Positions 3,087-34,059 of a stretch of 64,000 nt of DNA are shown here, one piece after another. The stretch is from Azolla caroliniana (taxonomy: Eukaryota; Plantae; Polypodiophyta). How positions within the stretch are numbered: position 1 is the stretch's first letter; each line of letters opens with the position of its first letter. Both the position numbers and the translations under genes were made by a program. The notes beneath the pieces were generated by a model. The model had not been told where the DNA came from, searched no databases, and was given only the letters and a program-made list of their open reading frames with translations. The stretch is taken from NCBI GenBank assembly GCA_043228905.1, contig JBHGNT010000011.1, forward strand, positions 18,786,001 to 18,850,000, given 5' to 3'.

Positions 3087-4207
3087 TTATCTACCTACGA
3101 ACCATGTGTCTTTCAAATGCCAAACACTATTATTGGCAATACCAAGCAAGGAAATATTATAGGACATCACCAAATACCAACCACACTTTTAGTGCCAATA
3201 ACTAATCCTCACATAAAAATAGAGCTCTTACAAGAAAATGAGCCAAAAACATCTATAAACTACCCTGATTTGAGTATTCTATGTTTTTTTTTGTTCATTC
3301 TTGGTTCTATGGGAGTTCTGATTTATAACTTCAAACAAGGATGAGATTTCCCTCTATAAGAGTTATTGGTCAAAGCTGGCAATATCCCATTTCTCTCATA
3401 TCCTAACATTTTGTATGCTTCCGGATGGCATGTCAATCCCTCTTTAATTTTTTACATCATAAACATGTTCACCATTTTATCACAGACTGCAAAACTCGTC
3501 TGATATGTAAAGCCACCAAGGCATCATGTTGCAGACCAAAAGTGAGAAATAAAGATTTTCACGACAAAAACGTAGAACCCATTGCAAATCTCCACCCGCA
3601 AATCACTTCACTGTTTTGATTATAAGAGCACAGTTGAAGATATTGATAAGAATGCTATTGAAACATTTTGGTTACTTGATATTTTACATTCTCTTGCATG
3701 GCTAGGTTGGCCTATAACACATGAAACTAAAATATTCTTAGTAACTTATAATTACAGAATACCCCCAAAATCTCTGGCACCACAAGAGTAGTTGAATATA
3801 TATATTTATATATGCACATTGGATACATGCCCGTGGTACACGATAATTTACAGTTTTTGTGTGATAAGCAATCAATTTCACTTGTTATTTCCCTGCATGT
3901 AAAGAGTTGCAGGGAATTTCTAGCTCCAAATTTATACAACTCACAACCACCCAATTGCAGTTTCCACAAAAACAACAAATATTTTGGGGTATACCAGTCA
4001 CAAACAAAAACCAGTCCGGATAAGATTCTGGCTCGGAATCTTGGCCAAACATAGTCGACCTGTTTAAATAGTATAGGCAAAACCAGTTTTACTGGAACCT
4101 CTACTTATGCCCTCAGTATTGTAAAAGGGGATAGATATTTGTGCATCAAAGTGCATATTCAGGCACAAGATGTTTCCATATAAATCTCTTGGACATCGAT
4201 GAAAATT

Positions 4208-7200: not shown

Positions 7201-10200
7201 GGCCTAATTTCTGATTCCTGCCCACTGCTTGCTCCTGCAGCATTCTCACTATTCGACTCGAAAGTGCTAGATTCAGGTCGTTCTCTAGCTTCCTGGTTAG
7301 TCTCTATAGCAGATATGCCGGCTTGTGATACATGGGACTGCACTATTTCACAAGCTTTGCTCGTTACAACTTCAATCAGACCCAACACCTGACACAAAAT
7401 AATACGTTAGCAGCTAACATTTAAATAATAAAACAAACATGAAGAAAAGCTTACCTGCTCCAAATGGGCACTACTTCTAGAATAAAGTGGCTGATTAAGC
7501 AATTTGAGAAGCAGAATTAGAGGAATCTGGCCCTTCAAATTTGAACCAGAAGATTCTTCCATCATCTCATCTTCCACCTTCTCTTTACCCTTCTCCATCA
7601 CCTGTTCTGAAACCTCCGTCTTTCGTTCAAGGCTTGCCATGGGTTCAGAATACAGTAGCAAACTTGCAACTAAAGCCTTGTGTTTTGCCAAGTAGGTCAA
7701 AATCTCTAATATGCGGCGGGAGACAAGAGGGGGAACTCCTACAAAGGTGAACAAACTTTAATCAGTGAACAAAAATAGATATGAGAAAAAACAAATACTC
7801 TGCTTCCCTTATGTTTACCATCTGAAAGCTGAGGGCGTGCATACACGATATTTGATTGACAGCCATAAAGCCGATGTGGGGGTGCCCCATCAGCAGATAA
7901 ACCATTGGTAGAGTCTCTAGCCCCATTGGGTCTGAGCATGTCCAACAACAATTGAACTAAAGTTGCACATGTAAGACTGTGAGAACAGAGATTATAGAGT
8001 AACCGTTGCAAAATGCCCTTCCCTAAAGGCTGAAAAACACAAAGACAATATGAAACAAGGGAAATTTAAGAAACGAATCAAAGACAACCCCACAATTCCA
8101 AAAGCAAACACAAACCAAACCTGAGCTAATCGGAGCAGCCTCAAAATAGCCTTAAGAGCAGGAGTATCAACCAGAGCTTTTCCTTCTTCCAGATTTTCTT
8201 TGTTACCAGAAGATACGACACCAGATGTTGTCCTTCGCCCTGGTTCAGAGCTCAAACCACTTCCCACAGCCCGATCTATAGCATCAGATATTCCTCTAGA
8301 ACCAATATCCATGATATTACGCCTACCTCCAAGTCTGTGAGATAAGCCAAATATATTACGAGATTGAAGTTGGCTCATTGCCCTTTCACGAAGCAAGCGA
8401 GCCTCCGCCAAGAGGGCAGGAGGAAGTGCAGCAAGCACTGATTCAGATGATGTTAAAAGTACCTACAATTCAGATGTTACGACCATGAATAAGTTAGCTA
8501 ATGAGAGAGGATATTTTTCAAATGAAGAATCCAAATATTAAAGGATTTCTTCACACCTCTTCTCTAAGCTCTGCTGGGAATGTTGCAATGATAGATGCAC
8601 TGTCCATATCCACAGGCTGTCCTTCCAGGTGATGAGCCTGAATTATCCTTTGCGCTTGCTGCTGTGCAAGTACTTCAGCCTGGATTTCTGGGGGAAGAGC
8701 TGCAAGGAACTCTGGATCAATATCTTGAACAGAAGAAGGTTGGTGTTCCTCAGTCCTGGTTGGTTGTGTTTGTTGAGAAGCTAATACTTCAGCTCTCAAA
8801 TCCTCTGGAAGGGCCTCTAAAAATGTGGGATCAATCGAGTTCCGAGATATATCTGTTTGTTCCCCTAGCAATGATTCACCCCCGTCTTCAGCATGCTCTG
8901 CAGAACCAGATTCCATAGGTCTATTGTTATCTACAGCAGATGGCTGATCAGAGCAATCCTCAAGAGCAACACCCTCCGTTTGTGCCTCTCCTCTCTGTAC
9001 ATTAACTTGTCTTGTTCTTCCATCTGCTCTTGTCATATTTGCAATTTCACTGGATGGATGGCCTGCGTCAATCCTGTCCGAAACAGCAGCTCTATCACTT
9101 TCATCATGGCCATCAGCACTACCTATCTCCACCTCCAAGCTTCGTAGACTCTCGCCAACTGTTGCTCCACTTCCACTACTGTCCTGGCTGGTAGCTTCTA
9201 TGTCTTTTACAGCAGATCCTGTTCTTTGATCATGCATATGCACATCAAGACCTGCATTTGGAAGCTGGTCATTTAGCCCTTCCCCCACATTAAGTGCAGT
9301 GTAAGATGAACCTTCATTCTGCTGGGCCTCTTCAGATAAATTCACCAGAGGATTGGTTGGATTTTCTTGAGGGTGTTCATGAGCAAGAGATGCAGTGTCA
9401 GCTTCCTCTCTACCAATGGACAGTTCTGGGGCTCTGGGAGCCATATCAACCAAGTCTGACATATGCCCATCGGCAACAGGTCCGCTAGAGGGTTGTGCAC
9501 CTGAAGTTGGAGAAGAGAACTGTGATAGAAACTGTTCTTCAAAAGCTTGCGCGAGAGCCACATCGATAGCTCCTCCCTGCAACTGACCATCATCTGTCCA
9601 GCTACTAAATTGTCCATCAGCTCTGCTGCCTCGCCTTCCCACCCTTGGTAACATAGGGAAATCTAGAAATACATCCTGTCCTCCAACACCACGATCTCCG
9701 AAGAGTCCATCTCCTACATGATCAACCATTGTACTATCATACCATGTATAGAGCTGAGAAACATCTAGACCATCATTTAAAACTGCCTCAGCCTCTTGAC
9801 CTACAAGAACTCCTGTTGAAGCCCAAGGAGAGGATACAGAAAACCCACCTGATCCTGGTACATTTGGCCGATTCAAAAGAGGGTGGCGTGAACTCCGGGT
9901 AATTTCAGTTCCTGTTCTGTCAAATGTCCTGTAAGAGGATCCGCGGCGCCGATCTAATCCACCTGGACGACGGAATGCACCAAAGAGGTAATCAATATTC
10001 ATTCCCTGGAAAGGATCTACCTGGTTAGCAGTATCCGTGGGACCAAGTACTTGGATGTGATTAAAGCCATTTGCCCCATCTCTCCAACGTACTCCAATTA
10101 TGCGATTCTCACGCCATTCATCCTCGTCCTCATCCTCTTCACCTTCTTCTGCCATATCATCATCATATTCTTCCTCTAGCTCATGTTGATCGGGGTCTTC

Positions 10201-13200
10201 AGCATCTGTGTCCGGAGGTGATAATGCAACCTCATCCTCCAACTCGTCATCATCTTGCTCATCTTCTTCATCCTCATCTTCCTCTTCCCCAGCATCATCA
10301 TCCATATCCTCATCATCATCTTCGTCCTCCCCCAAGTCATCTGCATCTCCATGATCTATCCTAAACGTCATTGTAGCACCAGCTACATCTCCTACTTCTG
10401 CATCAGGCATAAAGTCTTCATCTTCAGTTTCCAAGTGCACGTCATCATCCTCCTCGTCATCCCCATTGGCAACTTCATCCAAGCCCATGTCATGATCCAA
10501 CTGCTCATCATTCCTCATATCATCGTGCACAAGAATTCTTCTGATAGCCACTTGCAAGTCTTCTCGCAGTGATGCCTCCATCTCATCAATGTTTTGGATA
10601 TCGGGTGGTTGGGCATTAGAAAAGATCAGTCCATTTTCTGCATCAGTAGCATTCTCCAAGTTCCTTTTTGAATCAGTCATGTCACCCACACTAGCAGCTC
10701 GTGTTAATGCTTCCAGTGCTTTTGCAATTCCACTAACAAGTTTCGGCGCATCTGGATGATCCAAGTCAATCACTTGTATTAACGTAGTAAGAGCCTGCAC
10801 CAGATCAGTTTCAAGCATTGCCTTGGCCATTTCTGTTGAAATGCCAGGGGACTGACCATTGCCAGAGGATGTGTGCGATAAAAGAACCGTGTTCAAAAAA
10901 TCAATGAAGGCACACATTTCTTTGTCTGGAGCTTGTGAGCCCTCCTGACTGCTTGCATCTGGAGAGCTTGAAGCACAAATAAGAGATCTGGAAATTTCTG
11001 AAAACAGTCGCCTCCTACCTTCAGCTGATCTCATGCAAACTGCAACAAGGAACTGAACTGCTTTGCTAGAAAGCTTCTCTTTCAACTCATGTTCAGGTGA
11101 ATTTTCAGTGATACTAGATCTAAAATTCGGTACAAGCTTATGAAGGATACCATGCAGAAGACCGCCATGACCCACAGCCTCAGTGTGAAAGATGTTTTTT
11201 CCTTGGCTGGTCTCTGTGTCCCGCCTGAGGACAACAGTTGAAGATGATGAATACATGAGAATAATATCTGTGGTCAGCTTCAAAATGAAGCTTACTTTAG
11301 CAAGGGTAGCAGAACTTTCTGACATGGACGATTTATCTGATTTATCTGATTTCTCTGTATCGTCTACTTTTGCTTTACCTTTACCTTTGACAACCACTTC
11401 ATCCACCTCCATTGAAGTGGGAATAGTTGGGGTACTAATCTTCAGAAATCCAGAAGCTATCTTTTCTGGAGGCACAAAATTAATAATAATATCAAGAAGC
11501 TGCTCCATCACATGTGAAAAACTTTGAGGTACCTTCTTGTGGCCCTTCAATGATTTTGATCCTTCAATGATTTTTGGACCACCAACGGTGTTGTCATCAT
11601 GACCTTTCTTCTCCTTGTCCTTCTCAGAACCCCTATCTTTTTCTCTCTCCTTTTCCTTTTCCTTGTGTTTTGATAATACTACATACAGCCTTCCCCCAGA
11701 CTCTTCAATTTGGCAGAGTGCTGACGCAGCCTGCATAAATATTTTGGGATCCCTTGCAACAACCCTCGCCATTGTCGTCAAAAACGTTCTTGGAGAAATG
11801 CGGTTGTTGTGACGGCTTGGGGATGTTGTTAGTGCATGTCGGATTTCTGATTCCATTGCTTGTTGCAGTGTTTGAGGATCCTCAAGAAGATGCCGAATGA
11901 TCGCAGCAGCCACATTGTCAAAGCCAGTAAACAAGCAAGTCCTAGGCAAACTGAGTAAAGCTGACAGACCACCATTATCAAGGAACTGCATGGCAATAGA
12001 GTGAACTTTAGTTAGCCTTGCAGATAATTGAAGTATCGCCTGAGCTGGTGCTGAAGACAGTGGCATAGAGAGCAGGTTGCAGGCAACTGCCATTGTTCTT
12101 TTCTGTTCTTCCTCAGTCATATAGCCCGTGGGCTTCCCCAAGATCGCCTCCCAAGAATTCCTGTGTGTTAAATCAGCGTCAGCTTTTTGGTCTTCAGTGC
12201 TCACCTTCGACGAGTCAGCTGTTATTTCATCAGAACCACCCCCAGAATTTTGCAGAGTCGAATCAAGCTTAGGTCTATGTTGCAGCATAGAATCAAGAAC
12301 AAGCAGCAATGACGTAACCCATTTTGGTACAAATGGCTTATCTCCACTAACTGACACTGGTTTGAATGAGCTAAGAAAATCAAGGGCAATGGATGCAATT
12401 CCGTTTTTAGAAGCAGCTTCTCTGGAAATTGTGTCCTCTGACAAGATCAATGCCAGTAAGTGAGACACAGTTGACAAAGGACAATCGTCGGTCATTGAAT
12501 CCTCTACCTTGAAAAGTTTCACTTCCTGAATAAGATAAGAAATAACTTTTTGCCGATCTTCCCCCTTGTTGCGAGTGCACATCGTAACTATTAAATCTGC
12601 TACAGAAAAAATAATTGTATTGGATCTATAAAGCAAGTTTAAGCTAGACACAAGCATATCATTGACTGGAAGAAGTCGTGGTCTCGATTCTTCGATGTTG
12701 GTGTCTTTTCCCTTGCCACTTGTATCTTCATTGGTTGAATCACTTCCACTTCCTAGAGATAGTGCCAAAGCCCGCGCAAGCTCATCTTCTTCTTGAACAA
12801 CCTCTTCAGGATGGCCAAACAACCATTCCATTGCTAATTCAACACGGTTGTTCCCAACTCTCCTTAACGCTTCCTCAGCCCTAGCTCTTGGGAAACCCAT
12901 TTCAACAATTAATGAAATTGCAGACTCGTCTGGAGGCGATGACTGTTGCCTATTAGCTGTGGTCCCTACATCTGGAGTTTGCTGTACCCTTGTATCTGTC
13001 ACATCGGTGTAAATATGCTTTATTATGGAGACAATTGACCCAATAAAGGATGGGTTACATTGTGAAAACATAGGATGATTCCACAAAGGAAGTACAATTT
13101 CCAGAACCTGAGCTTGAAGGGCCAAAACAAAGTGCTCTGGATCCTTTGGGGTGGGAACAGTCCTTCCACTGACATACTGAACTAAGAATTGTACCATAGA

Positions 13201-16200
13201 TGAAGGTACCAAAAGCGTAGCAGGGTTGACCAAGTGTTCCATCAGCTTTGTGTAATTCTTTAATGTTTCTAGAATCCATGACTCCCTGCTTAATTTATCA
13301 CCCTTCTCAACTTCCACATTTCCTGCTTCTGTTTCCATAGGCAAAGAGGTCCAAAGAAGCTGACTTGTTGCCTCAAAGGTAGTTAATAGCTCCTTGAGAG
13401 TACCATGAGCATACAAGTGATTGACCATACTCGTATTGCAGTTTCTCTTCCTACTGTCCATTATTACTACCGCTGTTATGTCTTCAACAACTTTGCCCAA
13501 ATACCTACACTTCACAGATACTGATGCTTCTGATGACGAGGATGATGGGCCTCCAATGCCTGTGAACTCAAGATTTTTTAGGAAAAGGGTGGCCAAATAA
13601 GAGGCAATGGTGGTGTTTACTGGATTCACTGAATCATATCCATCACGATGACGAGAAGGAACTGCAGTGGCCTTGACAACTAGAGTAACATAGAATCCCC
13701 TTGCAGCAACTGCTAATCGTGTCATCATCTCATAACACATTGTTTCTGCAGACTTGTCCCCATTGGATTCCAAATCACCGCGGACAGTACGAACAGCAGC
13801 ATTACGTGTACGTGCCAGGCGGTCTAATCGAGCCACATGATTCCAAAGCTCAGTTTCCATAGTCTCTCTTCGAGTTCGGCGATCATGTTGCTCAGCGGGT
13901 AACAAAGGAATTAGATCAGATTCAAATCCCCAGCGGCTTCGAGATCCTCCTCCATACCTAATCACAGGGGCTGCTTCAGGTTCGTCTTCATTGTCCCTTA
14001 CTTCACCTTCAGTGTCTATAGCTATGGCTGACTTGCTTGCAGATTCTTCATCTCTACTTGGTTCAATTTTAGCATCATCTACAAGAGAAATTTGCCATAG
14101 CACCCATCTATGAATGCTACCTATATCATCAAAAAGATCACTACCTGCAGTATTAATTTCTGTCATCATAAGAGTAACAGTTCGCAAAAGACAGGTTACA
14201 AGGGACAGATAACACTGTGTTGCAGAGAGGTTCTTTGCCACCTTCTCTCGTGATGCAGCCTCTATATCTGAGAACTTCATAGAGACCAGTGAGTCAGCTG
14301 TTTTCTTCATATGCTCCTTCAAGGCTTTACAAACTGCTTTTGCAAGAGTGCCAGCATGCTGTGATGAAAAAGCTCTAAACGTCGAAAATATGTTGAAAGC
14401 AGTCGGAGATCCTCCAAATGAAACAGGCAAAAGGGGAAGAGTGAAGAGCTTAAGAAGGTCTTCAATGCCTTTCTTCTCAATAAATGCTCGGCAAGTATCT
14501 GCATTTTGAAATATAGTCTCTAGCATTTGTACAGTGTTATTTATGCACTCAGGGAGAAAAGCTTCAGTGCCAATATCACTGCCTGACTCATTTTGAACTG
14601 CTTTGGATTCCTCCTCTTTGTGATTACTTGCTGCCTGTTGTTCTGCGTCCATATCCATGGGAGTAGGCATGTCGGAATCTTCTGTCTCAGGTGTGTCAAC
14701 ACCTCCAATCATTCTGATCCTCTTGAGTATGTTGATACATGCATCTACTCCTGGACCTCGCAATGGGGGTGCATGGCGCATCAGTTCATCTAATCCTGAA
14801 GCTATTGTTGCTGGTGTATCCCCACCCAATGCTTTGAGGTAAGACTTGGATGTGAAGATCTTCACAAAGCACTCCAACACTTTAGAATCAAGAACAGCTT
14901 GTAAACCAGCATGGTTAAGACACAATGCATCCAATGCATGGGGTATGCATGCAACAGCATCTGAAGAGGGTAGAACATCAGCAGTTATGGCGTCCAGAAA
15001 AGCAGTTGGCAAACCAGCAGCATCAAGAGTTGGAAAGCAGGTAGGATCCTTATTTATAAGATCACTCATCACAGAGGCTGCTAAAGAAAACACACCACCT
15101 CCAAACTCTTTAGCGTGCCTGAAGATTGTGCACAAGCATGCAGGAAGAGCACTCTCCTCTGATCCATGCAACCTTGTGGTGTTACCAGAAGCATAGGTTC
15201 CAAGTGCAATGGCACGCAACAATGCCTTGAGCAACAGGCGATGACGGTAAGGGACAAGAATCTCATGCTGAGAGCTACAAACCGTAATATTGCTATCAGA
15301 CACTTCCATTTCTCCTTGTTCATCTTTAGCTCTGTGCTCAATGTGAGTTACCTCATATTGCAACCTTGTGATAGTGTCATCAAGACCACCCAAATCTCTG
15401 AACAAATTCCCTGCTGGATTACTGTAATCCATAAAAGCCTCAAGGATATGGACAGCAGATATTACAAGATCAATATGGTGTAGACTTGTATCTTTTAGAA
15501 GGGGTAGTAGCGTGGGTATGAGGCCTGCTTCCCTTAGTGCAGCACAACCAGCAGACGAAGAAACTAGAACAGTTACCAGGAAAAGAAGAGCTTCTGCGAA
15601 TGGAATTGAACATGTATCTGACGCACTTGTTAAGGAGGCAACTGCTTTTTGCACCAGACTTGGTAATACACCCCTATGTCCACCAGCACTAACAACATTC
15701 AAAACATTTGACTGGCGAGGCCGATCTTGGGCCTGTGCAGCCAAGGCCCGAAGAGCTAAAATCCTAATATCCTCTGGAACTGCATCTTCTGACTGCAAAA
15801 GTGCTACCAATTCATTCACAAATTCGGGCTCATTCACGAAAAAGGCTGTCAGATCTTCATGATCTGGGTTTGATTGCAATAGAGCGGTGAATGCTAAGAG
15901 ACGAATGCAAATGAACTGCCTTCGAATTTGTAGAGTATGAAATGCCCTCGCAAATCTTAAACGAGTAAACAAAGAGAATCTCAATTTCACAGGCACATGA
16001 TACTGATCTACTAGCTTTTTGAAAAGCAATAGGTCACTTTCTGGCCTCATATATACATCGGGAATGTGTATAACTTGCTGTCCCAAACACAATGCTGCAG
16101 AATCCGATTCTTCACCAGACAGGGTATCTGCATAGAACTCATAATGAAGGGTCGATGCCAGCTGAAAAGCATCAGCATCACAACCATCTTGAACTGCACA

Positions 16201-18684
16201 TGATAACAGCCCAAGTCCTTCTTCCTTACCCCCCCATCCCTGAGATAGAGAGAAAAGGTGCCCATTAAAGACAGAGTCACCATGCCATCGGACAGACCTG
16301 GTAGACTGAGCTGGCTTTTTCACAAGTGCAGCCAATGTCTGTAGTGCAGCAATGACAACCACAGAATTCGTCGATGCGAGTAATGACAAAAGATTCTGAA
16401 AACAATGCACAAATAATTAGTATTGATAATAGAAAATATACACTTGACCATTTACAGGAAAATGGTACCCCCAACTCCACAAAAATATGAAGGCATAGAA
16501 GGAACATTACTATAAAGATTTCATTGCCTACTCCTTTGCCTAGTTTACTATCAATGTATGGAAAATTCTGAATTTCCTGCACAAAGCCTGTGTTCAGAGT
16601 TTTCCTTATCATCTGAATTCTATATATAGTTTGTCTCTTTATCTTGTTACCGCCCTCCTGTTTGCACTTCATAAATGAGCATTGGTAAAGTTTCTTGATA
16701 TGTTTAAATCATATGGTTTCTCCCTTGTGTGTCACTCGCTACATCTTTATTTGACATTATTTACCCCTATCTGGATAGATATGCTACATTGTGTTTTCCC
16801 CCACAACAACTTTATTTTCCATTTGCTGCTCAATATGTCCACAAATGAGAATGTAGAATGTTGGAAAGGAAGTCCTAAAATACTAGAGGAATATTCTTCC
16901 TCATTGAATCTAAGTTTCAACAGTCTTGACAGAGATTCCCCAATTTTTCATTAATTCACTCCTCTATATACATGAATTAGTCGTGAAACAACTTTATTTT
17001 TCGTTTGCTGCTCAATATGTCCACATATGAGAAGGCAGAATGTTGGAAATGAAGTCCTCGAATACTAATAGGAATCTTCTTCCTCGTTGCATCTAAATTG
17101 TTACAGTCTTGATAGAGATTCCCCAATTTTTCATTAATTCACTCTTCTATACACATGAATTAGTAGAAAATATGCATTCCACATACCTAACATGGACACA
17201 ACAGTGCATCATAAAATAACTAGCCTAAGGCTAACAGCTAGAAAGAAAAAAAAAAAAATATGCAACAAGTATACAGCTGTTCGTGACACTTATCATCAAG
17301 GATCTAAGGAAGCAATAGCAGATAGGATTTTCTGCAGTCCATTGCTTAACTGCTCAATTACAAATACCTTACTTAAATTGACTTATTAAATATATCTCCT
17401 TGCCAAGTTGAACATCTTAACAAAAGAAGGGTTCTTCTATTAAAAAAGGGTACCTCATGTGATCTGTAGAGATATTTGTTCGCACAATTTTCGAAGATGA
17501 TCCGAGAGACCCGCAGAATCTCAAAAAGAGCGCCTTCGGGTAACTCCTCCTGGGGCTCTAGATAGTCTTCATCCAACTGTAGGTCTTTCCTTGGCTTTAT
17601 GTACTTCTCGAAAAAGAGGTCAAAGTGCTGAAAGAGATCTGTCCAGTGATGATAATCTCCCTATAGCCCAGGTTTCAACACAAGATAGTCATAAAATAGT
17701 TCAAAGCAATATTTGACAATGCAGATCAAGAACAAAATTTACCTTCTCATAATTCCAACAAAACCCAGACAGTGGATCTTGGATATTCTCCAAAGGGGTA
17801 CTTGTAACGCTCGATATAAATTTTTTAACATTTGCAGGCTGCAGAAGGGCAATAAAAAAACAATATACCCCAAGTTTTTGCTTCTCATTAAACTTTACCA
17901 GAGTATTGAGCACATATTACATTATTCTAAGTAGGTCCAACATATAGTGATTAGCCTGACTGATGGATTACGCCACATGTATTGGTCTAACCTCCTATGA
18001 TGATATATTAGGTCATATATAACCAAATGCTACACACACAAGTATGATAGATTATGTCATATAACGTGATTAAAACCAACTGATGGATCAGACCATGTAA
18101 TAGCAGTATAACCATAAGATGATCCATTAGTCCATATATGCAGTGATTAGACAAATTGATGATCAGGTCATATACAGCAGTCAACAAACTCTAACTGATA
18201 AATGGATTAGGTCATAATACATATGTTCCGGTATAACCCCATATGATGATAGATTAGCTCATAATACATACACAGTGAGGTCATATGTAGTGGAGGAGAT
18301 CCATACGATGACAGGTTAGACCATATAAATTGTTTAAACACATCAGATTATATCGTGTACGGTGTTCTAAACCGGTGATGATAGATTAAATGCTATATCA
18401 CACACTAAGCCATTATGATGATGTACTCGACCATATATAGAGGCACTACCCAATTCTTATACAAAATAGTGATCTAAACCTATATGCTCACGAATTAAAT
18501 CATATATAGTGATAACCAAACTGATACAACATGTACTTTTCTTCCAATCCAAGACCTAATTCACACACACACAAATGTCCTTGTTTTGTGAATAACATTT
18601 AAAAAAAGCAACATAATCTAATGAAAGATGAAGAAAAGAAAATTCACTTACCGCATCAGCGCCTCTTTTCTTCCGAGGTTTCAT
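4208..18684 (-). CDS. UPL1: HECT E3 ubiquitin ligase, UPL1/UPL2 (HUWE1/Tom1) type, about 3754 aa, 15 coding exons
   Basis: GT-AG exons read by eye: 18652-18684, 17743-17838, 17454-17660, 8557-16395, 8121-8462, 7819-8029, 7455-7738, 7063-7388, 5865-6987, 5579-5725, 5419-5499, 4877-5102, 4660-4799, 4428-4534, 4208-4310. They sum to 11265 nt, a multiple of 3. Motifs: ARM-like N-terminus, UBA ([15 protein letters not shown]), UIM ([12 protein letters not shown]), acidic tract, UBM repeats ([18 protein letters not shown]), HECT ([15 protein letters not shown], catalytic AHTCFNQL, terminal EGFGFG). UPL1 and UPL2 cannot be distinguished. Confidence 0.96.
16806..17163. repeat. Two-copy tandem duplication of about 180 bp in UPL intron 3
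   Basis: The unit acaactttatttt...gattccccaatttttcattaattcactc...catgaattagt occurs at about 16806-16980 and 16988-17163. Confidence 0.9.
17945..18520. repeat. Degenerate minisatellite with about 40-bp period in UPL intron 1
   Basis: A TGATRGATTAGGTCATAT-like core recurs at about 17961, 18001, 18045, 18081, 18120, 18157, 18201, 18247, 18309, 18379 and 18419, with divergent linkers. Confidence 0.7.
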
Positions 18685-22813: not shown

Positions 22814-23606
22814 CATGTCATTCATGTAGATGATGAGGAAGATGGGAGACCCATCCCGAGTTGTTTTGGTGAAGAGGCAGTGGTCCTCGTCGTTTTTGGA
22901 GAAGTCGACTAATTGGATGAAGTCGTCAAACTTCTTATACCATTGTCTTGGTGCTTGCTTTAGGCCGTATAAACTCTTCATGAGTCGGCAAACTAGATGT
23001 TCCTGGTCGGATGCCACAAAGCCTTTCGGCTGCTCCATATAGATTTCCTCCTCTATGTCATGGACACACCAACTGTGGATTGGGACGAAGCACGGATGAT
23101 GGGGCTATAAGAGACATGCTACGAACTTGAAGCTAAAAGTGATGAGGCTAGGAACTCTAGAAGTTGTGAGTGACATGAGAGCATGAACACATAGATGAAG
23201 AAGTTGACAAGATGGAATGAAACGAGAATTATACTAGATTGATGTGTCAATGAGTGGTGTTGAATCCCTTGAAAGGGACCAAGGAGGTTACAAGTATTTA
23301 TACAAGTTCCGAGATCGAATATCTCTATAATATAATCGAGAAATATCTCTAGAATATACTAACGACTAGAATATTCTAATTTTGAAATTTATTATCCGCT
23401 AGATTATAGAATACTACACCATTATATACAAATGTATGCTCATGTCAAAATGTTTGAGCATGACATCTTGTTGATGTGAGGTTGCAGGTTCAATCCTCAC
23501 CAACTATGTATTTGATGTCACTGTGTCGTGACATTATCCTCCCCTTTATGGCCTCCTTTTCGAAAGCGTGGTGTAGGGGTGAACAGGAGTTGGAGCACCG
23601 ATGGGG

Positions 23607-23880
23607 GTGAGCGAGCATGTGTCGTCCTCACCGGAGACACAAACACCAACGAGCGTGAGTGACCATGTGCGGTCCTCACTGGAGACATGAATACCAACCG
23701 ATGTGACCAACCATGTGCGGTCCTCACCGGAGACACGAATACCAACAGGCATGAGCGACCATGTGTGGTCCTCACTAGGAACTGGAACACTAACGGGAGT
23801 GAGCGATCATGAAGCCCTCACCGGGAACTAGAACACGAACATACGTAAGTGACCATGTGTGATCCTCACTGGGAACTTGA
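23607..23880. repeat. 48-bp tandem repeat, about 6 copies, inside the TRIM-like element
   Basis: Consensus is approximately gtgagcgaccatgtgcggtcctcaccggagacacgaataccaacgggc. It produces the 16-aa periodicity in ORF 23518-23790. Confidence 0.88.
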
Positions 23881-23986
23881 AGAACAACGAGCAAAGGAGT
23901 GCAGGTGAAGCGGTCGACTCGACTTCTTCTATCATGAGAGGGTAAATTGTCGAGGTTGACCCAAAACATGTCACAAACGGTAGTGC

Positions 23987-24320
23987 TAGCGAGAAACCAA
24001 TGTGATCCCCACTAGGAAAGTGAGCGGTTGTGACCCCCACCGAAACTAGAAGGTGAGCGATCGAAATCGATCCTCGTCAAAAGAAAGTGGAGTGAAATGT
24101 AGACCAAAATGCAAGCGAGCAACGATTCGATCCCCACCAGGAAAGTGAGCGGTTGTAACCCCCACCGGAACTGGGAAGGTGAGCGATCAAAGGAAAGTGG
24201 AGTGAAACTTGAACCGAAATGAAAATGGAGTGCAAACGAGCAATGATTCGATCCCCACCAGAAAAGTGAGATGTTGTAACCCCCACCGGAACTGTGAAGG
24301 TGAGCGATCGAAATCAATCC
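23987..24320. repeat. About 120-bp tandem repeat, 3 copies, inside the TRIM-like element
   Basis: gatccccacYaggaaagtgagcggttgtRacccccaccgRaact...aaggtgagcgatc occurs three times. Confidence 0.85.
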
Positions 24321-25734
24321 GTTTGATGAAGACAACAAGTGGTGTTGAAAATGATGATGTCAAAGACAATGCAGCGATGATGATGATGAGGAGGAGGAAG
24401 CGTCTCTAAAACCAAGGATGTTGATGACGGTAACTCTAGAAGCAAGTATTGTGACGATGGTAACTCTAAAAGCAAGGGCGATGACGAAGACGGGCGATGC
24501 TTCCAATTGGAAGCAATTCAAACTGTCACGGGCACACCAACCGCGGACTGGGACGGACCACGGATGATGGGGCTATAAGCGACAGGCTACGAACTTGGAG
24601 CTAGAAGTGACGAGGCTAGGAACTCTAGAAGTTGTGAGCGACATGAGAGCATTAACAAAGAGATGAAGAAGGAGACAAGATGGAATGAAATGAGAATACT
24701 GGATTGATGCGTCAATGACTGGTGTTGAATCCCATGAAAGGGACCAAGGAGGTTCCAACTATTTATACACATTCCGAGATTGAATATCTCTAGAATATAC
24801 TCATCTAGAATATACTGTACAATATCTTTAGAATATATTAACGACTAGAATATTCTGATTCTGAAATGTACCATACGCTAGACTATAGAATACTACACCA
24901 TTATGTACAAATATATGCTCATGTCAAAATGGTTGAGCATGATATCTTGTTGATGTGAGGTTGCAAGTTCAATCCTCGCCAACTATGTATTTTATGCCAT
25001 TGTGTCGTGACACTCTAGGTCATCGTGGAGGAATGTTGTTTTTATATCTAGCTGAATCAACTCTAGGTCTTCGGTTGCCACTATGCCGAGCATGAAGCGA
25101 AGAGTCGTCATTTTTACCACTGGTGGAAAAATCTCATCGAAGTCGACACCATATTCTTGTCGGAAACCCTTCGCGACTAATCTGGCCTTGAATTTTGGGG
25201 TGGCCGAATCAAATGTCTATCTTAATCTATAGACCCACTTGCATGGAAGAGCACATCGATTTTTCGGTAGTTCGACCAAGTCCCAAGTTTTGTTTGCCCG
25301 AATGGAGTTCATTTCCGACTCCATCGTCAAATGCCATGTGGCCGAATTGACTGATGTTGATACTTCTTCGTATGACGTGGGTTCACTAGTGTCCATGAAG
25401 AAGATTCCAAGAGAGTATCTCACAGGGGGTTGCGATAGTCTCTCAGATCTTCGAGGTATGATAGGACTAGTCACATCCAGTGTCAGAGTCACGTGGTCCA
25501 AAGCTGAATTATTCGGTTGTGCCAAGTTGGTGTGAGAGGATTTGGCTACCCGTGAAGCCGACCTCGTGTTATGGGTTGGGCCTTCGTGAAGCGGCGACAC
25601 ATCTGAAAAAATTACCCTTCGAACTTCAATAGGCGTTTCGGTCGTCTTATGCACAACTGACTTATTGAACACTACGTCTGAACTTCGGACGATTTGTCTA
25701 TTGCCGATGTCCCAAAGTCGGTATTTGAACTCAC

Positions 25735-27510: not shown

Positions 27511-28850
27511 AGGAACAAGTCACCCTCTCTTAGTGTGACATATAACGGGTACAGAGAATGCACTTTCCATCCTCAAGCAAGCAGGAGGTTTCCCCTGTGA
27601 ATTGTCCACACTCCTGATGAGAAGTCAATGCGGATGTCATCTTTGTCCAATTGTCTGGCTGAGATCAAAGGTACGTGCCAGACATTGTGTAGTACTAATG
27701 TAGAGCCACTCAAGAGGTTGACCTCACTATGCCGATTCTGATTATAGCATTGTTGTGATGGATTCTGGCCATAGAGAGAAACAGAGCAAGATGCGTGTGA
27801 ACGGGTGTGTGCATGGATGCACACAAACTTAAGACTTTATGTACGAACGTATGTAAATAGCATAGTACTAGAAAGTGCTAGGAGGAGTAGGATTTAATGG
27901 GCACTTTAAGGCGCACACACATAGAGAGGAATACGAGGATTTGGTGTGGGGAAATTGAGGAGAGAATCAGGGAGGACAGAAAGCGGCAGTCTTTATCGGT
28001 GATGTAACGACCTTCCCCTTTGTTTTATAAAAAGGGGAAGTTTGGGACTGTATTGGGGATCCAGGATTTGGAGGACAAAGTGTTGTCGATTTGAGTGTCA
28101 AGCTCTTTCTCTCTCTCTCTCCCGTCTCTATGTGTCGTGCGATGTGCTGATTCGAGGAAGAAGTTGAAGCCTCTGCTCGTGTTGGAAGCCGTGTGCTCTC
28201 GACCTAAGGTTCGTCGTTCCATGCGTGTGTGGGTGTGTGCAGCTCGCAACTTTGTCGTTGGCTAAGTTCGATTGTAATCTCTTCTTCTCTGATAATCGTT
28301 AGTATTTTGCTGAGTCTTTCCTTGTGTAAAGACATTACCTTGTTGTTCCCTCTTGCTTCTGTCATGTGTGTCGAAATTCCGTGCTCGGCCACAACCGAGG
28401 AACTGGATCGATTCACAGAAAACGGGAAATACAACAATGCACGAAAACAATAGAGAGAAGGGTACACTGGATGTTTTACGTGGAAAACCGTAGACGGGAA
28501 AAACCACGGGAGTACAAGACTCCAAACCAAACACTATACAGAGAAGTATACAATGGCGAGCTGCAAGGCGACGACCTTGAGCTCGCTGTCCTCGCCACAG
28601 GCGGCGGAAATACACAGAGGCGTCTACCTCTTCGTCTCTCGCGCTCTATCTCTCTCTCTCTCTCACGGCTACTCTCTCTTCACTCCCCTTGAGTGGAAAA
28701 ACAGAAAAATAAGCCGCATAAACTGTTTGCCCTAAGTCATATTTATACACATATGACTTTCGGGCTATTTACAAATATAGCCTCAAGGGCTCTTGGCAAA
28801 CATATTCACAAATATGTCCCCGCATCCGGATCTCCCTCCGGGTACATTCG

Positions 28851-29037
28851 TCATCCGGCTCCGTAACCGGGGTCTTCAGCATCCGGCTCCGTAGCCGGGG
28901 TATTCATCATCCGGCTCCGTAGCCGGGGTCTTCATCATCCGGCACCGTAGCCGGGGTCTTCATCATCCGGCTCCGTAGCCGGGGTCTTCATCATCCGGCA
29001 CCGTAGCCGGGGTCTTCATCATCCGGCACCGTAACCG
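28851..29037. repeat. 28-bp tandem array (6 full plus 1 partial) in U3 of the 3' LTR
   Basis: Unit tcatccggcWccgtaRccggggtcttca. Confidence 0.95.
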
Positions 29038-29108
29038 CAACCGGGCTTGCCGTCATTCATCTCCGGACATCCCATCCGGAGGGACCGAAATCCCAACAAA
29101 CTCCCCCT

Positions 29109-32100
29109 TCACTTCGGCATGGGATGTCTCTCCAATCCGACCCTCTTCCGGCACGCTTCCAGCTTGTCGGGTGTGAGCACTTTGGTCAGCATATCTGACC
29201 CGTTCTCTTCCGTGTGGATCTTCGTCAGCATGAACTCCTGGTCTTCTATCCTTTCCCGGATCCAGTGATATCTTCGCTGGATGTGCTTCGTCCGGGAGTG
29301 ATAGGCCGCGTTCTTCGCAAGGTGGATGGCACTCTGACTGTCGCAGTAGAGTCGGTACTCCTCTTGCCGGATACCGAGCTCTCTAATGAAGTCCTTCATC
29401 CATATTATTTCCTTGCCGGCTTCAACAGCCGCCATGTACTCCGCCTCCGTGGTTGACAACGCAACCGTCTTCTGCAGCCTCGACTGCCACGAAACAGCTC
29501 CCCCTGCATACGTCATCACATACCCTGATGTGGACCGGCTGGTATCTTCATCAGCCGACATATCCGAATCGGTAAAGCCGTCGAGTTCGGGCTTACCGGA
29601 GCCGAATCGGAGGCACACGTTTGCCGTGCCCTTCAGGTATCGGAGTATCCACTTGACCGCGTTCCAGTGGTCTTTGCCGGGATTGCTCATGTACCGGCTC
29701 ACCACTCCGACTGCGTATCCTATGTCCGGTCTTGTACACACCATTGCGTACATCAAGCTTCCGACGGCAGAGGCATATGGTACTTTCATCATGTCCTCCT
29801 TCTCAGCCTTTGTCTTGGGGCTCTGCTTGCTGGACAACTTGCAGTTTGCCGGGAGGGTTGACCCGACCGGTCTTGCTTCCGACATGTTGAACCGGTGAAG
29901 CACCTTTGTCACGTACTTCTCCTGTGACAGCCACAACTGCTTCTTCTTCCGGTCCCGGATGATGTGCATCCCTAGTATTTGCCTCGCCGGACCCAGGTCC
30001 TTCATTGAGAAGGTTCGGTGAAGAGCCTTCTTCAGCATCCGTATCTTGACCTGGTCCCGTCCGACGATCAACATGTCGTCCACGTATAGGAGGAGTATTA
30101 GAAAGTCTCCTCCTTCGAACTTCTTCACAAACACGCAGTGATCGGACTGCGTTTTGTGGTACCCTTCGTCGGTCATGAAGGAGTCGAACTTCCGGTACCA
30201 TTGCCGGGGAGCCTGCTTCAGTCCGTAAAGGCTCTTCTTCAACCGGCATACCAGGTGCTCCTTCCCTTTCTTCTCGAATCCTTCCGGTTGCTGCATGTAG
30301 ATCTCTTCTTCGAGGTCACCGTGAAGGAATGCTGTCTTCACGTCCATCTGTTCTACCTCGAGGTCCATGCTTGCCGCTATGCTCAGCACCGTCCGGATGG
30401 AGGTCATCTTCACTACCGGGGCAAATATCTCGTCGAAGTCGACGCCCTTCTTCTGCTGAAACCCCTTCACCACGATCCTGGCTTTGTATCTCGGGGGGTT
30501 TCCGGCATCTCCCGGTTTCAGCTTGAACACCCACTTGTTTCGAAGTGCCCGCTTTCCTTTCGGCAACTCCACAAGTTCATATGTGTGGTTCTCATGCAGG
30601 GAATCCATCTCGTCCTGCATGGCACTCAACCACCTGCGGCTCTGGGTGTCATGCTTTGCTTCTTCAAAGCTCTCCGGCTCCCCCTCGTCGGTTAGCAGCA
30701 CGTGCTCTGGTTCCGGAAATCTCCGGGGGGCCCTTCTCTCTCTTAGAGGATATCTCCGTTCCGGAGCTTCGGTAACCGGTTCTTCCGATTCTTCTTCATC
30801 CGAATCCATTTCGGGATCGGGGCCGGTTCCGGTATCATTTTCATCTTCTTCGGCCGGTTCTGTTTCTTCACCGTCTTCGGCCGGATCCTCGAGAGCTAAC
30901 CGGTCCCTTGCCGGTCGGGACTGCTCCTCGTAGAGTTGATCCTCACCGGTCGACTTGGAGCTCTTCATCTTCTTCTCCGACTCCCAGTCGGCGAGTGTCT
31001 TGTTCTCCATGAAGATGATATCTCGACTCCTGAATATCTTCTTGTCGACCGGGTCCCATACTCGGTAGCCGAACTCGTCGTCGCCGTAACCGAGGAATAT
31101 GCATGGCCGGGTCTTTGGATCTAGCTTTCCTCTCCGGTCCTTTGCCACATGCACGTATGCGAGACACCCGAACACCTTCAGATGCCGGTAGGACACTTCC
31201 TTACCGGTCCACACTTTCTGCGGCGTGTCTCCGTCCAAAGGTACTGAGGGTGATCTATTTATCACATACGTCGCCGTCGACATTGCCTCAGCCCAAAACC
31301 CCTTGGGTAATTTCGCATGCGCCAGCATACTCCGGACCCTCTCCATTATGGTCCGGTTCATCCTCTCGGCCAGCCCGTTCAGTTCCGGCGTCTTCGGCAC
31401 AGTAAACTCGAGCCGGATCCCCTTCGAGCGACAGTACTCCTGGAACTGCCCCCGGTATTCCCCTCCGTTATCCGCTCGTATCGCTTTCAGCTTCTTGCCG
31501 GATTCTCTTTCCACTCTCGCGTGGAGTTCTTTGAAGACGGACAACACTTGGTCCTTTGTCTTCATCGGTGCCGTCCACAGTCTTCGGCTATGATCATCTA
31601 TGAATGTTACGAAGTACTGGGCTCCGCCATGTGACTTCGTTTCTACCTGACACACATCGGTGTGCACCAACTCCAATGGTGCGCTACGTCTCGTCGGTGG
31701 CCTTGAGTGGAAGGAGGTTCGGTTCTGCTTACCGGCCAGGCAATCGGTGCACTTTTCCAGGTGCACATGCTTCACTGGGATAAGGTTGTCTTCTGCAAGC
31801 CTCTTCATCCCCTTCTCACTCATGTGGCACAGTCTTTTGTGCCACAGCTCACCGGCAGTGTCAGCTGCCACATTCAGCTCTTCCGGACATAGCCGGGAGT
31901 TCATCAGGTACAGTGTGTTGACCTTCCGGGCCCGAGCCACTATCAGGCTCCCCTTGCTGAACTTCATGACACCGTTCCGGATGCTACCCGTGTAGCCTTC
32001 ATCATCTAGCCTCCCGGCCGAGATCAGGTTCAATCGGACTTCCGGAACGTGTCGCACATCCTTCAGCAGCATCTTGCATCCGGTTGATGTCATCAGCCAC

Positions 32101-33182
32101 ACGTCTCCTATGCCGGCAATCCGGCATGTGCCTTCATTTCCCATCCGGACACAGCCATGCTCACCGGCTGTGTAGGATGAGAAGTATTTCTTCTCCGGGG
32201 TCAGGTGGAACGACGCTCCAGAATCGACCACCCAGGTCATCTCTACACCGGCAAGGTTCAGCTCCCTCTCTTCGGTAATGAGCATTATCTCTTCTTCACT
32301 TGCCGCGAGTGCCGTCGTTCCTTTCCGGTCCTGCCCTCGCCGATCCGGACCTCTCCGGTCCGTGGCTCCCCGGTATGCACCGTTTCTCTCCGGTGACTTC
32401 TTCGAATCGGTGTCGTCGGCTCCGTTGTCCTTTCGGTAATGCCGACAATTCTTCTGGAAGTGCCCCGGCTTCCCACAGTGGAAGCATGTGGGCCTTCCTC
32501 TTGACTGCGACCGGGTCCCCGACTTCTCCCGTCTTTGCGGACTCCGGTTCCATTGTCTTCCCCGATCCGATTCGGTAAGCAGCGCCTTCGAGTCGGAGGC
32601 CGGTTCTTTATCTCTCCGACGCGCTTCTTCGTTCAAAATGCTTGTCTTTACCGTTTGTAGAGACAAGTTATCTTCGGTGCAGGAGGTGCTGAGAGTCACC
32701 ACCAAGTTCTCCCAGCTTTCCGGCAATGTACACATCAGAATGATGGCTTGCATTGCATCCTCCAACGGGAACTTGATCGCCGCAAGCTGGTTCACGAATC
32801 CCATGAACGTGCTTACGTGTTCCACCATACTCTCGCCGTCCCGATACTTGAGGTTCACTATCTTTCTCATCAGGGAGGTTCGGTTCAACGCATTCTTCCT
32901 CTCGTAGAGGCCCGACAGCTTCCTCCACATCTCATATGCGTTGGTGTTGTTCGCCACGTGTTGTAGAACGCTCACGTCGACGTATTGCCGAATGGTTGCA
33001 ACGGCTTTCCGGTTCAGAAGCCTCCACTCCGTCTCAAGTACCCCCTTGGGTATTTCCGACCTGTCGATCGGTTCATACAGGTCCCGAACAATGAGCAGAT
33101 CCTCCATCTTTATCTTCCAGTCGGCGTAGTTCTGCGCATTCAGCACCATCATCCCCGGCTGCCCGCTGCTGCCGCCTTCCAT
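29109..33182 (-). CDS. Copia gag-pol polyprotein, 1357 aa, uninterrupted
   Basis: Gag, zinc knuckle CFHCGKPGHFQKNC, protease WVVDSGAS, integrase (VHTDVC, RADNGGEY, NGLAERMNRT), RT LYVDDML and RNase H, in Copia order PR-INT-RT-RH. The first ATG after the PBS is at 33182. Confidence 0.97.
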   Translation of the reverse strand: MEGGSSGQPGMMVLNAQNYADWKIKMEDLLIVRDLYEPIDRSEIPKGVLETEWRLLNRKAVATIRQYVDVSVLQHVANNTNAYEMWRKLSGLYERKNALNRTSLMRKIVNLKYRDGESMVEHVSTFMGFVNQLAAIKFPLEDAMQAIILMCTLPESWENLVVTLSTSCTEDNLSLQTVKTSILNEEARRRDKEPASDSKALLTESDRGRQWNRSPQRREKSGTRSQSRGRPTCFHCGKPGHFQKNCRHYRKDNGADDTDSKKSPERNGAYRGATDRRGPDRRGQDRKGTTALAASEEEIMLITEERELNLAGVEMTWVVDSGASFHLTPEKKYFSSYTAGEHGCVRMGNEGTCRIAGIGDVWLMTSTGCKMLLKDVRHVPEVRLNLISAGRLDDEGYTGSIRNGVMKFSKGSLIVARARKVNTLYLMNSRLCPEELNVAADTAGELWHKRLCHMSEKGMKRLAEDNLIPVKHVHLEKCTDCLAGKQNRTSFHSRPPTRRSAPLELVHTDVCQVETKSHGGAQYFVTFIDDHSRRLWTAPMKTKDQVLSVFKELHARVERESGKKLKAIRADNGGEYRGQFQEYCRSKGIRLEFTVPKTPELNGLAERMNRTIMERVRSMLAHAKLPKGFWAEAMSTATYVINRSPSVPLDGDTPQKVWTGKEVSYRHLKVFGCLAYVHVAKDRRGKLDPKTRPCIFLGYGDDEFGYRVWDPVDKKIFRSRDIIFMENKTLADWESEKKMKSSKSTGEDQLYEEQSRPARDRLALEDPAEDGEETEPAEEDENDTGTGPDPEMDSDEEESEEPVTEAPERRYPLRERRAPRRFPEPEHVLLTDEGEPESFEEAKHDTQSRRWLSAMQDEMDSLHENHTYELVELPKGKRALRNKWVFKLKPGDAGNPPRYKARIVVKGFQQKKGVDFDEIFAPVVKMTSIRTVLSIAASMDLEVEQMDVKTAFLHGDLEEEIYMQQPEGFEKKGKEHLVCRLKKSLYGLKQAPRQWYRKFDSFMTDEGYHKTQSDHCVFVKKFEGGDFLILLLYVDDMLIVGRDQVKIRMLKKALHRTFSMKDLGPARQILGMHIIRDRKKKQLWLSQEKYVTKVLHRFNMSEARPVGSTLPANCKLSSKQSPKTKAEKEDMMKVPYASAVGSLMYAMVCTRPDIGYAVGVVSRYMSNPGKDHWNAVKWILRYLKGTANVCLRFGSGKPELDGFTDSDMSADEDTSRSTSGYVMTYAGGAVSWQSRLQKTVALSTTEAEYMAAVEAGKEIIWMKDFIRELGIRQEEYRLYCDSQSAIHLAKNAAYHSRTKHIQRRYHWIRERIEDQEFMLTKIHTEENGSDMLTKVLTPDKLEACRKRVGLERHPMPK

Positions 33183-33695
33183 TTTCTGTGTTACCGTCGC
33201 TCTGATACCACTTTGTCGAAATTCCGTGCTCGGCCACAACCGAGGAACTGGATCGATTCACAGAAAACGGGAAATACAACAATGCACGAAAACAATAGAG
33301 AGAAGGGTACACTGGATGTTTTACGTGGAAAACCGTAGACGGGAAAAACCACGGGAGTACAAGACTCCAAACCAAACACTATACAGAGAAGTATACAATG
33401 GCGAGCTGCAAGGCGACGACCTTGAGCTCGCTGTCCTCGCCACAGGCGGCGGAAATACACAGAGGCGTCTACCTCTTCGTCTCTCGCGCTCTATCTCTCT
33501 CTCTCTCTCACGGCTACTCTCTCTTCACTCCCCTTGAGTGGAAAAACAGAAAAATAAGCCGCATAAACTGTTTGCCCTAAGTCATATTTATACACATATG
33601 ACTTTCGGGCTATTTACAAATATAGCCTCAAGGGCTCTTGGCAAACATATTCACAAATATGTCCCCGCATCCGGATCTCCCTCCGGGTACATTCG

Positions 33696-33910
33696 TCATC
33701 CGGCTCCGTAACCGGGGTCTTCAGCATCCGGCTCCGTAGCCGGGGTATTCATCATCCGGCTCCGTAGCCGGGGTCTTCATCATCCGGCACCGTAGCCGGG
33801 GTCTTCATCATCCGGCTCCGTAGCCGGGGTCTTCATCATCCGGCACCGTAACCGGGGTCTTCATCATCCGGCTCCGTAGCCGGGGTCTTCATCATCCGGC
33901 ACCGTAACCG
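33696..33910. repeat. 28-bp tandem array (7 full plus 1 partial) in U3 of the 5' LTR
   Basis: Same unit with one extra copy, which accounts for the 28-bp LTR length difference. Confidence 0.95.
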
Positions 33911-34059
33911 CAACCGGGCTTGCCGTCATTCATCTCCGGACATCCCATCCGGAGGGACCGAAATCCCAACAATGTGTGCGTCCATGTTTGCATGCCCGTG
34001 GGCCTATCATTGTTCTTCGGCATCCTACCGGGAATAGTTCACTCCTTCAGTCCTGTGTG

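What the first reader, a model, noticed from the sequence alone, without database searches (positions are those of the whole stretch)
23430..24992. TRIM-like element whose two LTRs each carry a tRNA-like cloverleaf and Pol III promoter module
Seen: both LTRs (about 23430-23515 and 24910-24992, plus strand) contain a D-arm-like GCTCA..TG(G/T)TTGAGC, an anticodon-arm-like ACAT-CTTGTTG-ATGT (UGU, Thr-like), and a B-box/T-loop (GGTTCAATCC at 23487-23496; AGTTCAATCC in the right LTR). Flanking AAATRTA/TGTATTT can pair. Presence in both LTRs means the module travels with the element. Known: Cassandra TRIMs carry 5S rRNA-derived Pol III promoters in their LTRs. Inference: this may be a tRNA-based analogue. 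The PPT places the element on the minus strand, so the module would be antisense in U3 and might act as an antisense promoter, TFIIIC insulator or captured SINE head.
Basis: partly seen in the sequence, partly recalled or inferred. Interest (0 to 1): 0.75.

Follow-up and report, generated by a model that had tools for sequence, protein, structure and literature searches.

The report
Backward tRNA relic in fern retrotransposon
A high-copy, non-coding jumping element, likely from a fern, carries a worn tRNA-like sequence backwards in both of its end repeats; the element likely uses an ordinary TATA promoter and likely primes its own copying, so it is a variant of the known tRNA-bearing Helenus elements and probably not one driven by a tRNA promoter.

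Summary
The motifs are there, but the LTRs are 478 and 489 bp and the element is 1,957 bp (23056-25012, TSD CTCTA), inserted in a broken Copia. The host is likely a fern. The tRNA likeness is real but weak: ARAGORN and Rfam find nothing; a tRNA-core model ranks the two modules first and second in the window (15.2 and 10.2 bits). All 29 metagenome matches sit at an LTR tip; none is a free SINE. The B box is kept, the A box is not, and the module folds as two hairpins, not a cloverleaf. It is antisense. On the other strand, a conserved TATA box lies 32 nt before an 11-mer complementary to the primer site (11 of 11 in L019): Tf1-type self-priming, inferred. So the module is unlikely to be the element's promoter. 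tRNA-bearing LTRs of non-autonomous elements are already described (Helenus, Kojima 2024), and this scan noted self-primed, tRNA-box TRIMs in fungi before. My searches found no description of the antisense, U3-tip, self-primed plant form. Verdict: new variant of a known kind; what the module does is inferred only.

The parts
23056..25012 (-). Non-coding, non-autonomous LTR retrotransposon, 1,957 bp
   Evidence: LTR alignment and TSD; no Pfam hit in 8 internal stop-free frames; joints that skip the element in host-Copia contigs
23051..23055 (.). Left target-site duplication CTCTA
25013..25017 (.). Right target-site duplication CTCTA
24524..25012 (-). 5' LTR (489 bp)
   Evidence: 29 transitions and 19 transversions in 475 sites against the other LTR, K2P 0.11
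23056..23533 (-). 3' LTR (478 bp)
   Evidence: 54 and 45 contigs run on into unlike flanks at 23533
23436..23500 (+). tRNA-like module (D-arm, anticodon-arm, variable-loop and T-arm register), antisense in U3 of the 3' LTR; B box 23487-23496
   Evidence: 10.2 bits, E 0.24; 16.7
24915..24979 (+). tRNA-like module, antisense in U3 of the 5' LTR, followed by TTTT at 24990
   Evidence: 15.2 bits, E 0.009
24760..24767 (-). TATA box of the 5' LTR (copy in the 3' LTR at 23295-23302)
   Evidence: found in 13 related LTRs
24725..24735 (-). Predicted first 11 nt of the transcript (self-primer), 32 nt after the TATA start; copy at 23260-23270
   Evidence: exact 11-mer in 8 of 13 related LTRs, spacing 32 in 10 of 13; the start site itself is not mapped
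24511..24521 (-). Self-priming primer-binding site, 2 nt inside the 5' LTR; decayed in this copy (9 of 11)
   Evidence: 97-99.7% of contig depth in 4 runs has the complementary letter at the two mismatched places; 11 of 11 in L019
23534..23548 (-). Polypurine tract abutting the 3' LTR
   Evidence: same tract behind the tip in 8 of 29 loci
23607..23881 (.). Internal 48-bp minisatellite (about 5.7 copies)
   Evidence: much longer array in L001
23985..24312 (.). Internal repeat of about 121-125 bp spacing, three copies

Best explanation
The module is likely a tRNA-derived sequence (SINE head or tRNA pseudogene, Thr-UGU-like) captured backwards at the U3 tip of a non-coding LTR element that is likely transcribed by Pol II and likely primes its own reverse transcription, and it is likely kept as RNA hairpins at the 3' end of the genomic RNA rather than as the element's promoter. 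Shown: element anatomy, antisense position, family-wide presence, TATA, primer/PBS complementarity, loss of box A, two-hairpin prediction. Inferred: Pol II starts 32 nt after the TATA; the first 11 nt fold back onto the PBS and RNase H of an unknown autonomous partner (Tcn1-type Gypsy or TAR-type Copia) frees the primer as in Tf1; the PPT primes the second strand; one capture event was copied into both LTRs by reverse transcription. Odds by step: tRNA origin about 0.8; not the promoter of the genomic RNA about 0.9; self-priming about 0.85. Why it is kept is the weakest step: RNA structure next to the PPT about 0.4, passenger in a constrained LTR tip about 0.25, B-box or tRNA-binding role the rest.
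For: Orientation: PPT, TATA and PBS are all on the minus strand. TATA-to-primer is the best-conserved LTR segment outside the search seed, 88.7% (n=14) against 83.4% for the D+anticodon part, 73.3% R/U5 (n=10) and 60.7% for the adjacent U3. L019 has an 11 of 11 primer/PBS match with pair probabilities 0.59-1.0; Tf1 uses its first 11 bases this way (PMC7175516, passage). tRNA register: top two hits in the window; Thr-UGU takes 3-5 of the 10 best matches for each of 6 copies while making up 27 of 162 tRNAs. Module at an LTR tip in 29 of 29 seed matches (25 distinct flanks) and 5 further copies. Hairpins: z -3.6 and -3.3 on the genome strand against -1.6 and -2.2 on the tRNA strand; lower on the genome strand in 18 of 25 copies; 89.8% of cells paired against 74.2% for the cloverleaf; almost free of gaps (aligned fraction 1.00 against 0.85-0.88).
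Against: No significant covariation for either structure (89 of 500 shuffles reach the two-hairpin score, 29 of 500 the cloverleaf score). Wobble asymmetry favours the tRNA strand, not the genome strand: 19 G-U against 9 A-C cells. Substitutions per site in the D+anticodon part (0.18) equal those of R/U5 (0.18) in 9 loci. The T-arm region has 2 of 24 variable places against 17 of 74 beside it, p 0.15. The hairpin-2 columns were fixed by my search seed. Of three LTR/PBS junctions seen, two are imperfect (9 of 11 in the window, 7 of 11 in L001). No autonomous partner and no donor tRNA or SINE was found.
Confidence: 0.5

Rival explanations
1. The module is a live antisense Pol III unit or TFIIIC site: the B box binds TFIIIC, and a roughly 85-nt RNA antisense to U3 ends at the T run before the LTR tip, or the site shields the Pol II promoter from silencing.
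For: No place in the B-box core 23488-23496 varies at 12% or more in 4 runs; GGTTC in 20 of 29 copies; TGGTTGAGC in 13 of 29; TTTT within 22 nt behind the T arm in 22 of 29; wobble asymmetry favours this strand.
Against: TRGCY of box A in 1 of 29 and in neither window LTR; GCTCA in only 10 of 29; B-box conservation not significantly above its neighbours (p 0.15).
Confidence: 0.2
2. Chance resemblance: two ordinary LTR hairpins happen to contain GAGC and GTTCAA at tRNA spacing.
For: ARAGORN and Rfam are blank; the left module scores 10.2 bits beside an unrelated 9.8-bit hit; my models were biased towards its motifs; no acceptor stem; no donor found.
Against: Anticodon hairpin with 7-nt loop, 5-nt AGGTT variable loop and T loop all fall in register with one extra base; 34-40 points above the next site in the window and above 12 simulated windows.
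Confidence: 0.15
3. On the genomic RNA the module is the complement of a tRNA's D, variable and T arms and anneals a host tRNA in U3, as the 3' half of the Ty3 bipartite PBS does, to bridge the genome ends or aid packaging.
For: Position in U3 and antisense polarity fit; Ty3 binds the T and D arms of its primer tRNA in U3 (PMC5371799, passage); a tRNA-like sequence in HIV-1 U3-R is reported (title only).
Against: The element appears self-primed, so no primer tRNA needs anchoring; the longest exact run shared with any of 162 viral-contig tRNAs is 11-15 nt; the complement is predicted to be buried in hairpins. Host tRNAs were not available.
Confidence: 0.1
4. A true Helenus/TRIMp3: the tRNA-derived boxes drive Pol III transcription of the element itself (which would need the element to read on the plus strand).
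For: tRNA-like sequence in both LTRs, 5-bp TSD, non-coding interior.
Against: PPT, TATA and PBS lie on the other strand; no purine tract abuts the right LTR on plus; TTTT directly behind the module; 11 TTTT runs on the genome strand; 1,957 bp against 311-1,263 bp for Helenus (PMC10886601).
Confidence: 0.05

Closest known systems
Helenus / TRIMp3 (Kojima 2024, PMC10886601; parts 1-5 of 6 of the text read, legend passages, supplement records for Selaginella)
   Same: Non-autonomous LTR element with a tRNA-like sequence in both LTRs, PPT, 5-bp TSD as in plant and fungal Helenus; proposed origin by SINE insertion into an LTR; Thr is among the isotypes seen.
   Different: Helenus is 311-1,263 bp, keeps boxes A and B, and has a tRNA-complementary PBS; in Helenus-1_SMo (325 bp, the only plant family) the tRNA-like part reads in the same direction as PBS and PPT (by eye). 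Here it is antisense, at the U3 tip of a 480-bp LTR with TATA, box A is degenerate, and priming is predicted to be tRNA-free.
Cassandra TRIM (as described in PMC10886601, introduction; original paper not read)
   Same: [quoted passage not shown]
   Different: 5S-derived and transcribed by Pol III from inside the 5' LTR through to the 3' LTR; no 5S match here and the polarity is opposite.
Self-priming LTR elements: Tf1 of S. pombe, plant Tcn1 chromoviruses, TAR Copia (PMC7175516 and PMC6317226, passages and supplement file 3 rows)
   Same: 11-nt complement between the predicted transcript start and a PBS beside the 5' LTR; 5-bp TSD (Tcn1 83% self-priming, TAR 89%).
   Different: No coding sequence, so the lineage cannot be assigned. 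A PCR survey found no Tcn1-like clones in ferns (PMC2864245, passage). No tRNA-like U3 module is mentioned in the passages read.
Ty3 bipartite PBS in U3 (PMC5371799, passages); HIV-1 U3-R tRNA-like sequence (title in a reference list only)
   Same: tRNA-related sequence in U3; in Ty3 it is complementary to tRNA arms on the genomic RNA.
   Different: Those elements prime with that same tRNA; this one is predicted to self-prime.

Membership tests
Helenus / TRIMp3 | Two LTRs, PPT, non-coding interior, 5-bp TSD (plants, fungi) | tested here: met
Helenus / TRIMp3 | tRNA-like sequence in both LTRs | tested here: met
   weakly: 15.2 and 10.2 bits with my model; Rfam and ARAGORN blank
Helenus / TRIMp3 | Short element (screen under 1,000 bp; range 311-1,263 bp) | tested here: not met
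   1,957 bp, LTRs 478/489 bp
Helenus / TRIMp3 | Box A with TRGCY and YGG | tested here: not met
   TRGCY in 1 of 29 copies and neither window LTR; TGG half kept in 13 of 29
Helenus / TRIMp3 | Box B with GGTTC | tested here: met
   left LTR and 20 of 29 copies (seed allowed G or A); 73-87% of depth in 4 runs
Helenus / TRIMp3 | tRNA-like part in the sense of the element, able to drive the genomic RNA | tested here: not met
   antisense to PPT, TATA and PBS; TTTT behind it in 22 of 29
Helenus / TRIMp3 | PBS complementary to a host tRNA | tested here: not met
   no TGG-type PBS; the site matches the element's own LTR. Host tRNA halves could not be compared.
Helenus / TRIMp3 | Transcription by Pol III | not testable with these tools
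   only contigs were available
Tf1/Tcn1/TAR-type self-priming elements | About 11 nt of LTR complementary to a PBS beside the 5' LTR | tested here: met
   11 of 11 in L019, 9 of 11 window, 7 of 11 L001; complementary letters at 97-99.7% depth at the two window mismatches
Tf1/Tcn1/TAR-type self-priming elements | That 11-mer is the 5' end of the transcript | not testable with these tools
   inferred from TATA+32 spacing in 10 of 13 LTRs
Tcn1 chromovirus or TAR Copia lineage | RT/INT phylogeny, chromodomain | not testable with these tools
   no coding partner inside the element in the window or in the 13 of 29 loci whose frames were scanned
Cassandra | 5S rRNA-derived LTR domain | tested here: not met
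   no 5S match in Rfam
Functional tRNA gene | Acceptor stem, canonical D loop, purine 37, cloverleaf fold | tested here: not met
Free tRNA-derived SINE | Copies outside LTRs with own body and tail | tested here: inconclusive
   0 of 34 copies outside an LTR tip, but from one exact 24-nt seed and no whole genome
Retrozyme | Hammerhead ribozyme in the LTR | tested here: not met
   no Rfam hammerhead match

The most novel reading that the evidence does not exclude
Thousands of fern LTRs carry a back-to-back design: a Pol II promoter with tRNA-free self-priming on one strand, and a captured tRNA gene on the other that still recruits TFIIIC/Pol III, making a short antisense RNA or a chromatin boundary that protects the element's promoter. 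This would be a use of a captured tRNA gene not described for Helenus or Cassandra in the papers I read.
Probability: 0.15. Interest if true: 0.7.

Novelty: new variant of a known kind. Interest (0 to 1): 0.36.

Why it matters
It extends tRNA capture in LTRs to a large, high-copy, probably fern family and shows that such a module need not be the element's promoter, which bears on the untested TRIMp3 idea. It is also a candidate snapshot of the proposed SINE-into-LTR origin, caught in the non-productive orientation. The self-priming signature implies a self-priming autonomous lineage in this host, although a PCR survey found no Tcn1 in ferns. Without expression or binding data it remains repeat annotation.

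Tried and rejected
No whole genome is held, so no genome-wide copy set, partner or host tRNA set. No RNA holder listed; one run guessed as RNA is probably DNA. Viral contigs: 0 matches to the module. ARAGORN at 85-90% called an AT-rich Ala(agc) pattern on the minus strand at 23351-23439 and 24830-24918, not the module; 25-29% GC and mismatched stems, rejected as noise. Rfam hits on the region and on 20 of 29 loci were sub-threshold miRNA/snoRNA models, the best caused by an inverted LTR pair in L008. One search used wrong columns and is void. One pattern was mis-spaced and found nothing (redone by BLAST). Exact-match search for self-priming failed on the window copy alone because of its two mismatches. 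Pfam on 83 stop-free frames found retroelement domains only in flanking DNA. Lack of cover upstream of 23420 in two runs is not used, except that 11 contigs show a different upstream sequence there. Six of 29 loci (L002, L004, L010, L012 truncated or rearranged; L017 matching L008 over the module; L025 sharing L016's flank) plus L021 and L024 were left out of alignment A1 (21 loci and 2 window copies). Literature searches found no antisense tRNA-like U3 module in a self-priming plant element; Repbase and most subscription papers are not searchable, I read only the Selaginella-related part of the Helenus supplement, and PMC2802660 was not held.

Full report
Observation. They are not the LTRs but an 85-nt part of them. 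The LTRs are 23056-23533 and 24524-25012, 86.8% identical, ending TG...CA, with the 5-bp duplication CTCTA. The 1,957-bp element interrupts a degenerate Copia pol region; contigs of the host Copia family skip it, with 5 shared letters in two runs. No other copy lies in the window. The interior holds minisatellites and no Pfam domain in 8 frames. The neighbouring ubiquitin-ligase gene has its best match in Adiantum nelumboides (78%; next a liverwort at 69%), so the host is likely a fern.

Family. 16 of 19 listed runs from 8 studies hold part of the element. 3,537-9,266 contigs per run were laid on it, with dozens of unlike flanks at the LTR tip; laid runs cover organisms A, B, D and E. An exact 24-nt seed found 29 metagenome contigs with 25 distinct flanks. 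In all 29 the LTR tip follows 23-40 nt later, and in 8 the PPT follows the tip. Five further copies without the seed are also at LTR tips. No free SINE copy was seen.

Is it tRNA-like? Standard tools say no: ARAGORN and Rfam. I fetched 162 tRNA cores from viral contigs and built a covariance model from 60 of them. It ranks the two modules first and second in the window, at 15.2 bits (E 0.009) and 10.2 bits (E 0.24), the third hit being unrelated at 9.8. The D stem, a 7-nt loop reading UGU in the anticodon place, the AGGTT variable loop and the T loop fall in register with one extra base. A second scorer agrees. Both lean towards the module through their training pattern. Thr-UGU is the commonest isotype among best matches, but not always the top one. 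Departures: 14-nt D loop, T at 37, no acceptor geometry, broken stem pairs. I put tRNA ancestry at about 0.8, a functional tRNA near zero.

Polarity and priming. On the minus strand the PPT abuts the left LTR, a TATA box lies in mid-LTR, and 32 nt after its start lies an 11-mer. This unit is the best-conserved part of the LTR outside my seed (88.7%; exact 11-mer in 8 of 13, spacing 32 in 10 of 13). Two bases inside the 5' LTR lies its complement: 11 of 11 in L019, predicted to pair, 9 of 11 in the window, 7 of 11 in L001. At the window's two mismatches 97-99.7% of contig depth in four runs carries the complementary letter (486 other rows of that table were not shown). Tf1 primes with its first 11 bases in this way (PMC7175516, passage); plant Tcn1 and TAR lineages are predicted to do so and make 5-bp TSDs (PMC6317226, passages and supplement rows). 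That TATA-to-start spacing of about 30 nt marks Pol II, and that four T stop Pol III, is recalled knowledge. The start site is inferred, not mapped.

What the module can do. It reads away from the element's transcript, about 150-200 nt upstream of the TATA, at the far U3 tip. TTTT follows in 22 of 29 copies and in the right LTR, and the genome strand has 11 such runs. So it can hardly drive the genomic RNA. Box B is kept; the 5' half of box A is not. The module is better conserved than the AT-rich U3 beside it (83% against 61%) and nearly gap-free, but by substitutions no better than R/U5 and worse than the TATA unit. It folds as two hairpins, more stably on the genome strand (most of 19 other LTR tiles are near z 0, one outside the module reaches -2.2). 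Covariation is not significant for either structure, and wobble asymmetry points to the tRNA strand. I therefore commit, weakly, to a captured relic kept as RNA structure beside the PPT, with a live B box, chance, and tRNA annealing as rivals.

Known systems. Helenus (PMC10886601; text parts 1-5 of 6, legend passages and two supplement look-ups) already covers non-autonomous LTR elements with tRNA-like LTRs, including one in Selaginella, and proposes SINE insertion as origin. This family fails its size, box A, PBS and polarity features, so it is not a member, though it shares the likely origin. Elements of 1.5-4 kb have no settled name (PMC13570524, passages). Ty3 has a tRNA-binding site in U3 (PMC5371799, passages). 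A PCR survey found no Tcn1 in ferns (PMC2864245, passages). Six searches found no report of this arrangement, within a library that lacks Repbase and most subscription papers. Earlier notes of this scan describe self-primed fungal TRIMs with tRNA-like boxes, which I did not check.

Verdict. Observation partly confirmed; interpretation partly supported; new variant of a known kind; interest 0.36.

Noticed in passing
L013:905-962 (minus): A second, better tRNA-like head (22.6 bits) in flanking DNA, unrelated to the LTR module and single among these loci; possibly a fern SINE head.
   Followed up: partly
window 23204-23355: Summed contig depth over the TATA/primer bins is several times that of the module bins in all four runs; depth is no copy number, but other families may share this promoter core without the module.
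   Followed up: no
window 23368-23377 and 24847-24856: GAA-nn-TTC palindromes resembling heat-shock elements (label recalled) in the variable U3 between module and TATA; repeated in related LTRs such as L011.
   Followed up: no
L008, L014, L017; L025: Head-to-head inverted LTR pieces in three contigs and a tandem duplication of module plus tip in L025; real rearrangements or assembly artefacts.
   Followed up: no
L011:1100-1750: A truncated 3' LTR runs into a degenerate Gypsy RT/RNase H segment in the same direction; probably the insertion target after a deletion, not shown to be a partner.
   Followed up: partly
window 28369-33972 (minus): Intact Copia element: 1,382-aa open frame at 29109-33257, LTRs 96% identical.
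   Followed up: no
window 5769-16416 (minus): UPL1/HUWE1-type HECT ligase exons, including a 2,621-codon stop-free stretch.
   Followed up: partly
window 24498-24513: A perfect palindromic hairpin directly behind the PBS, and a predicted U5 stem, both reminiscent of the structures recalled for Tf1 priming.
   Followed up: partly
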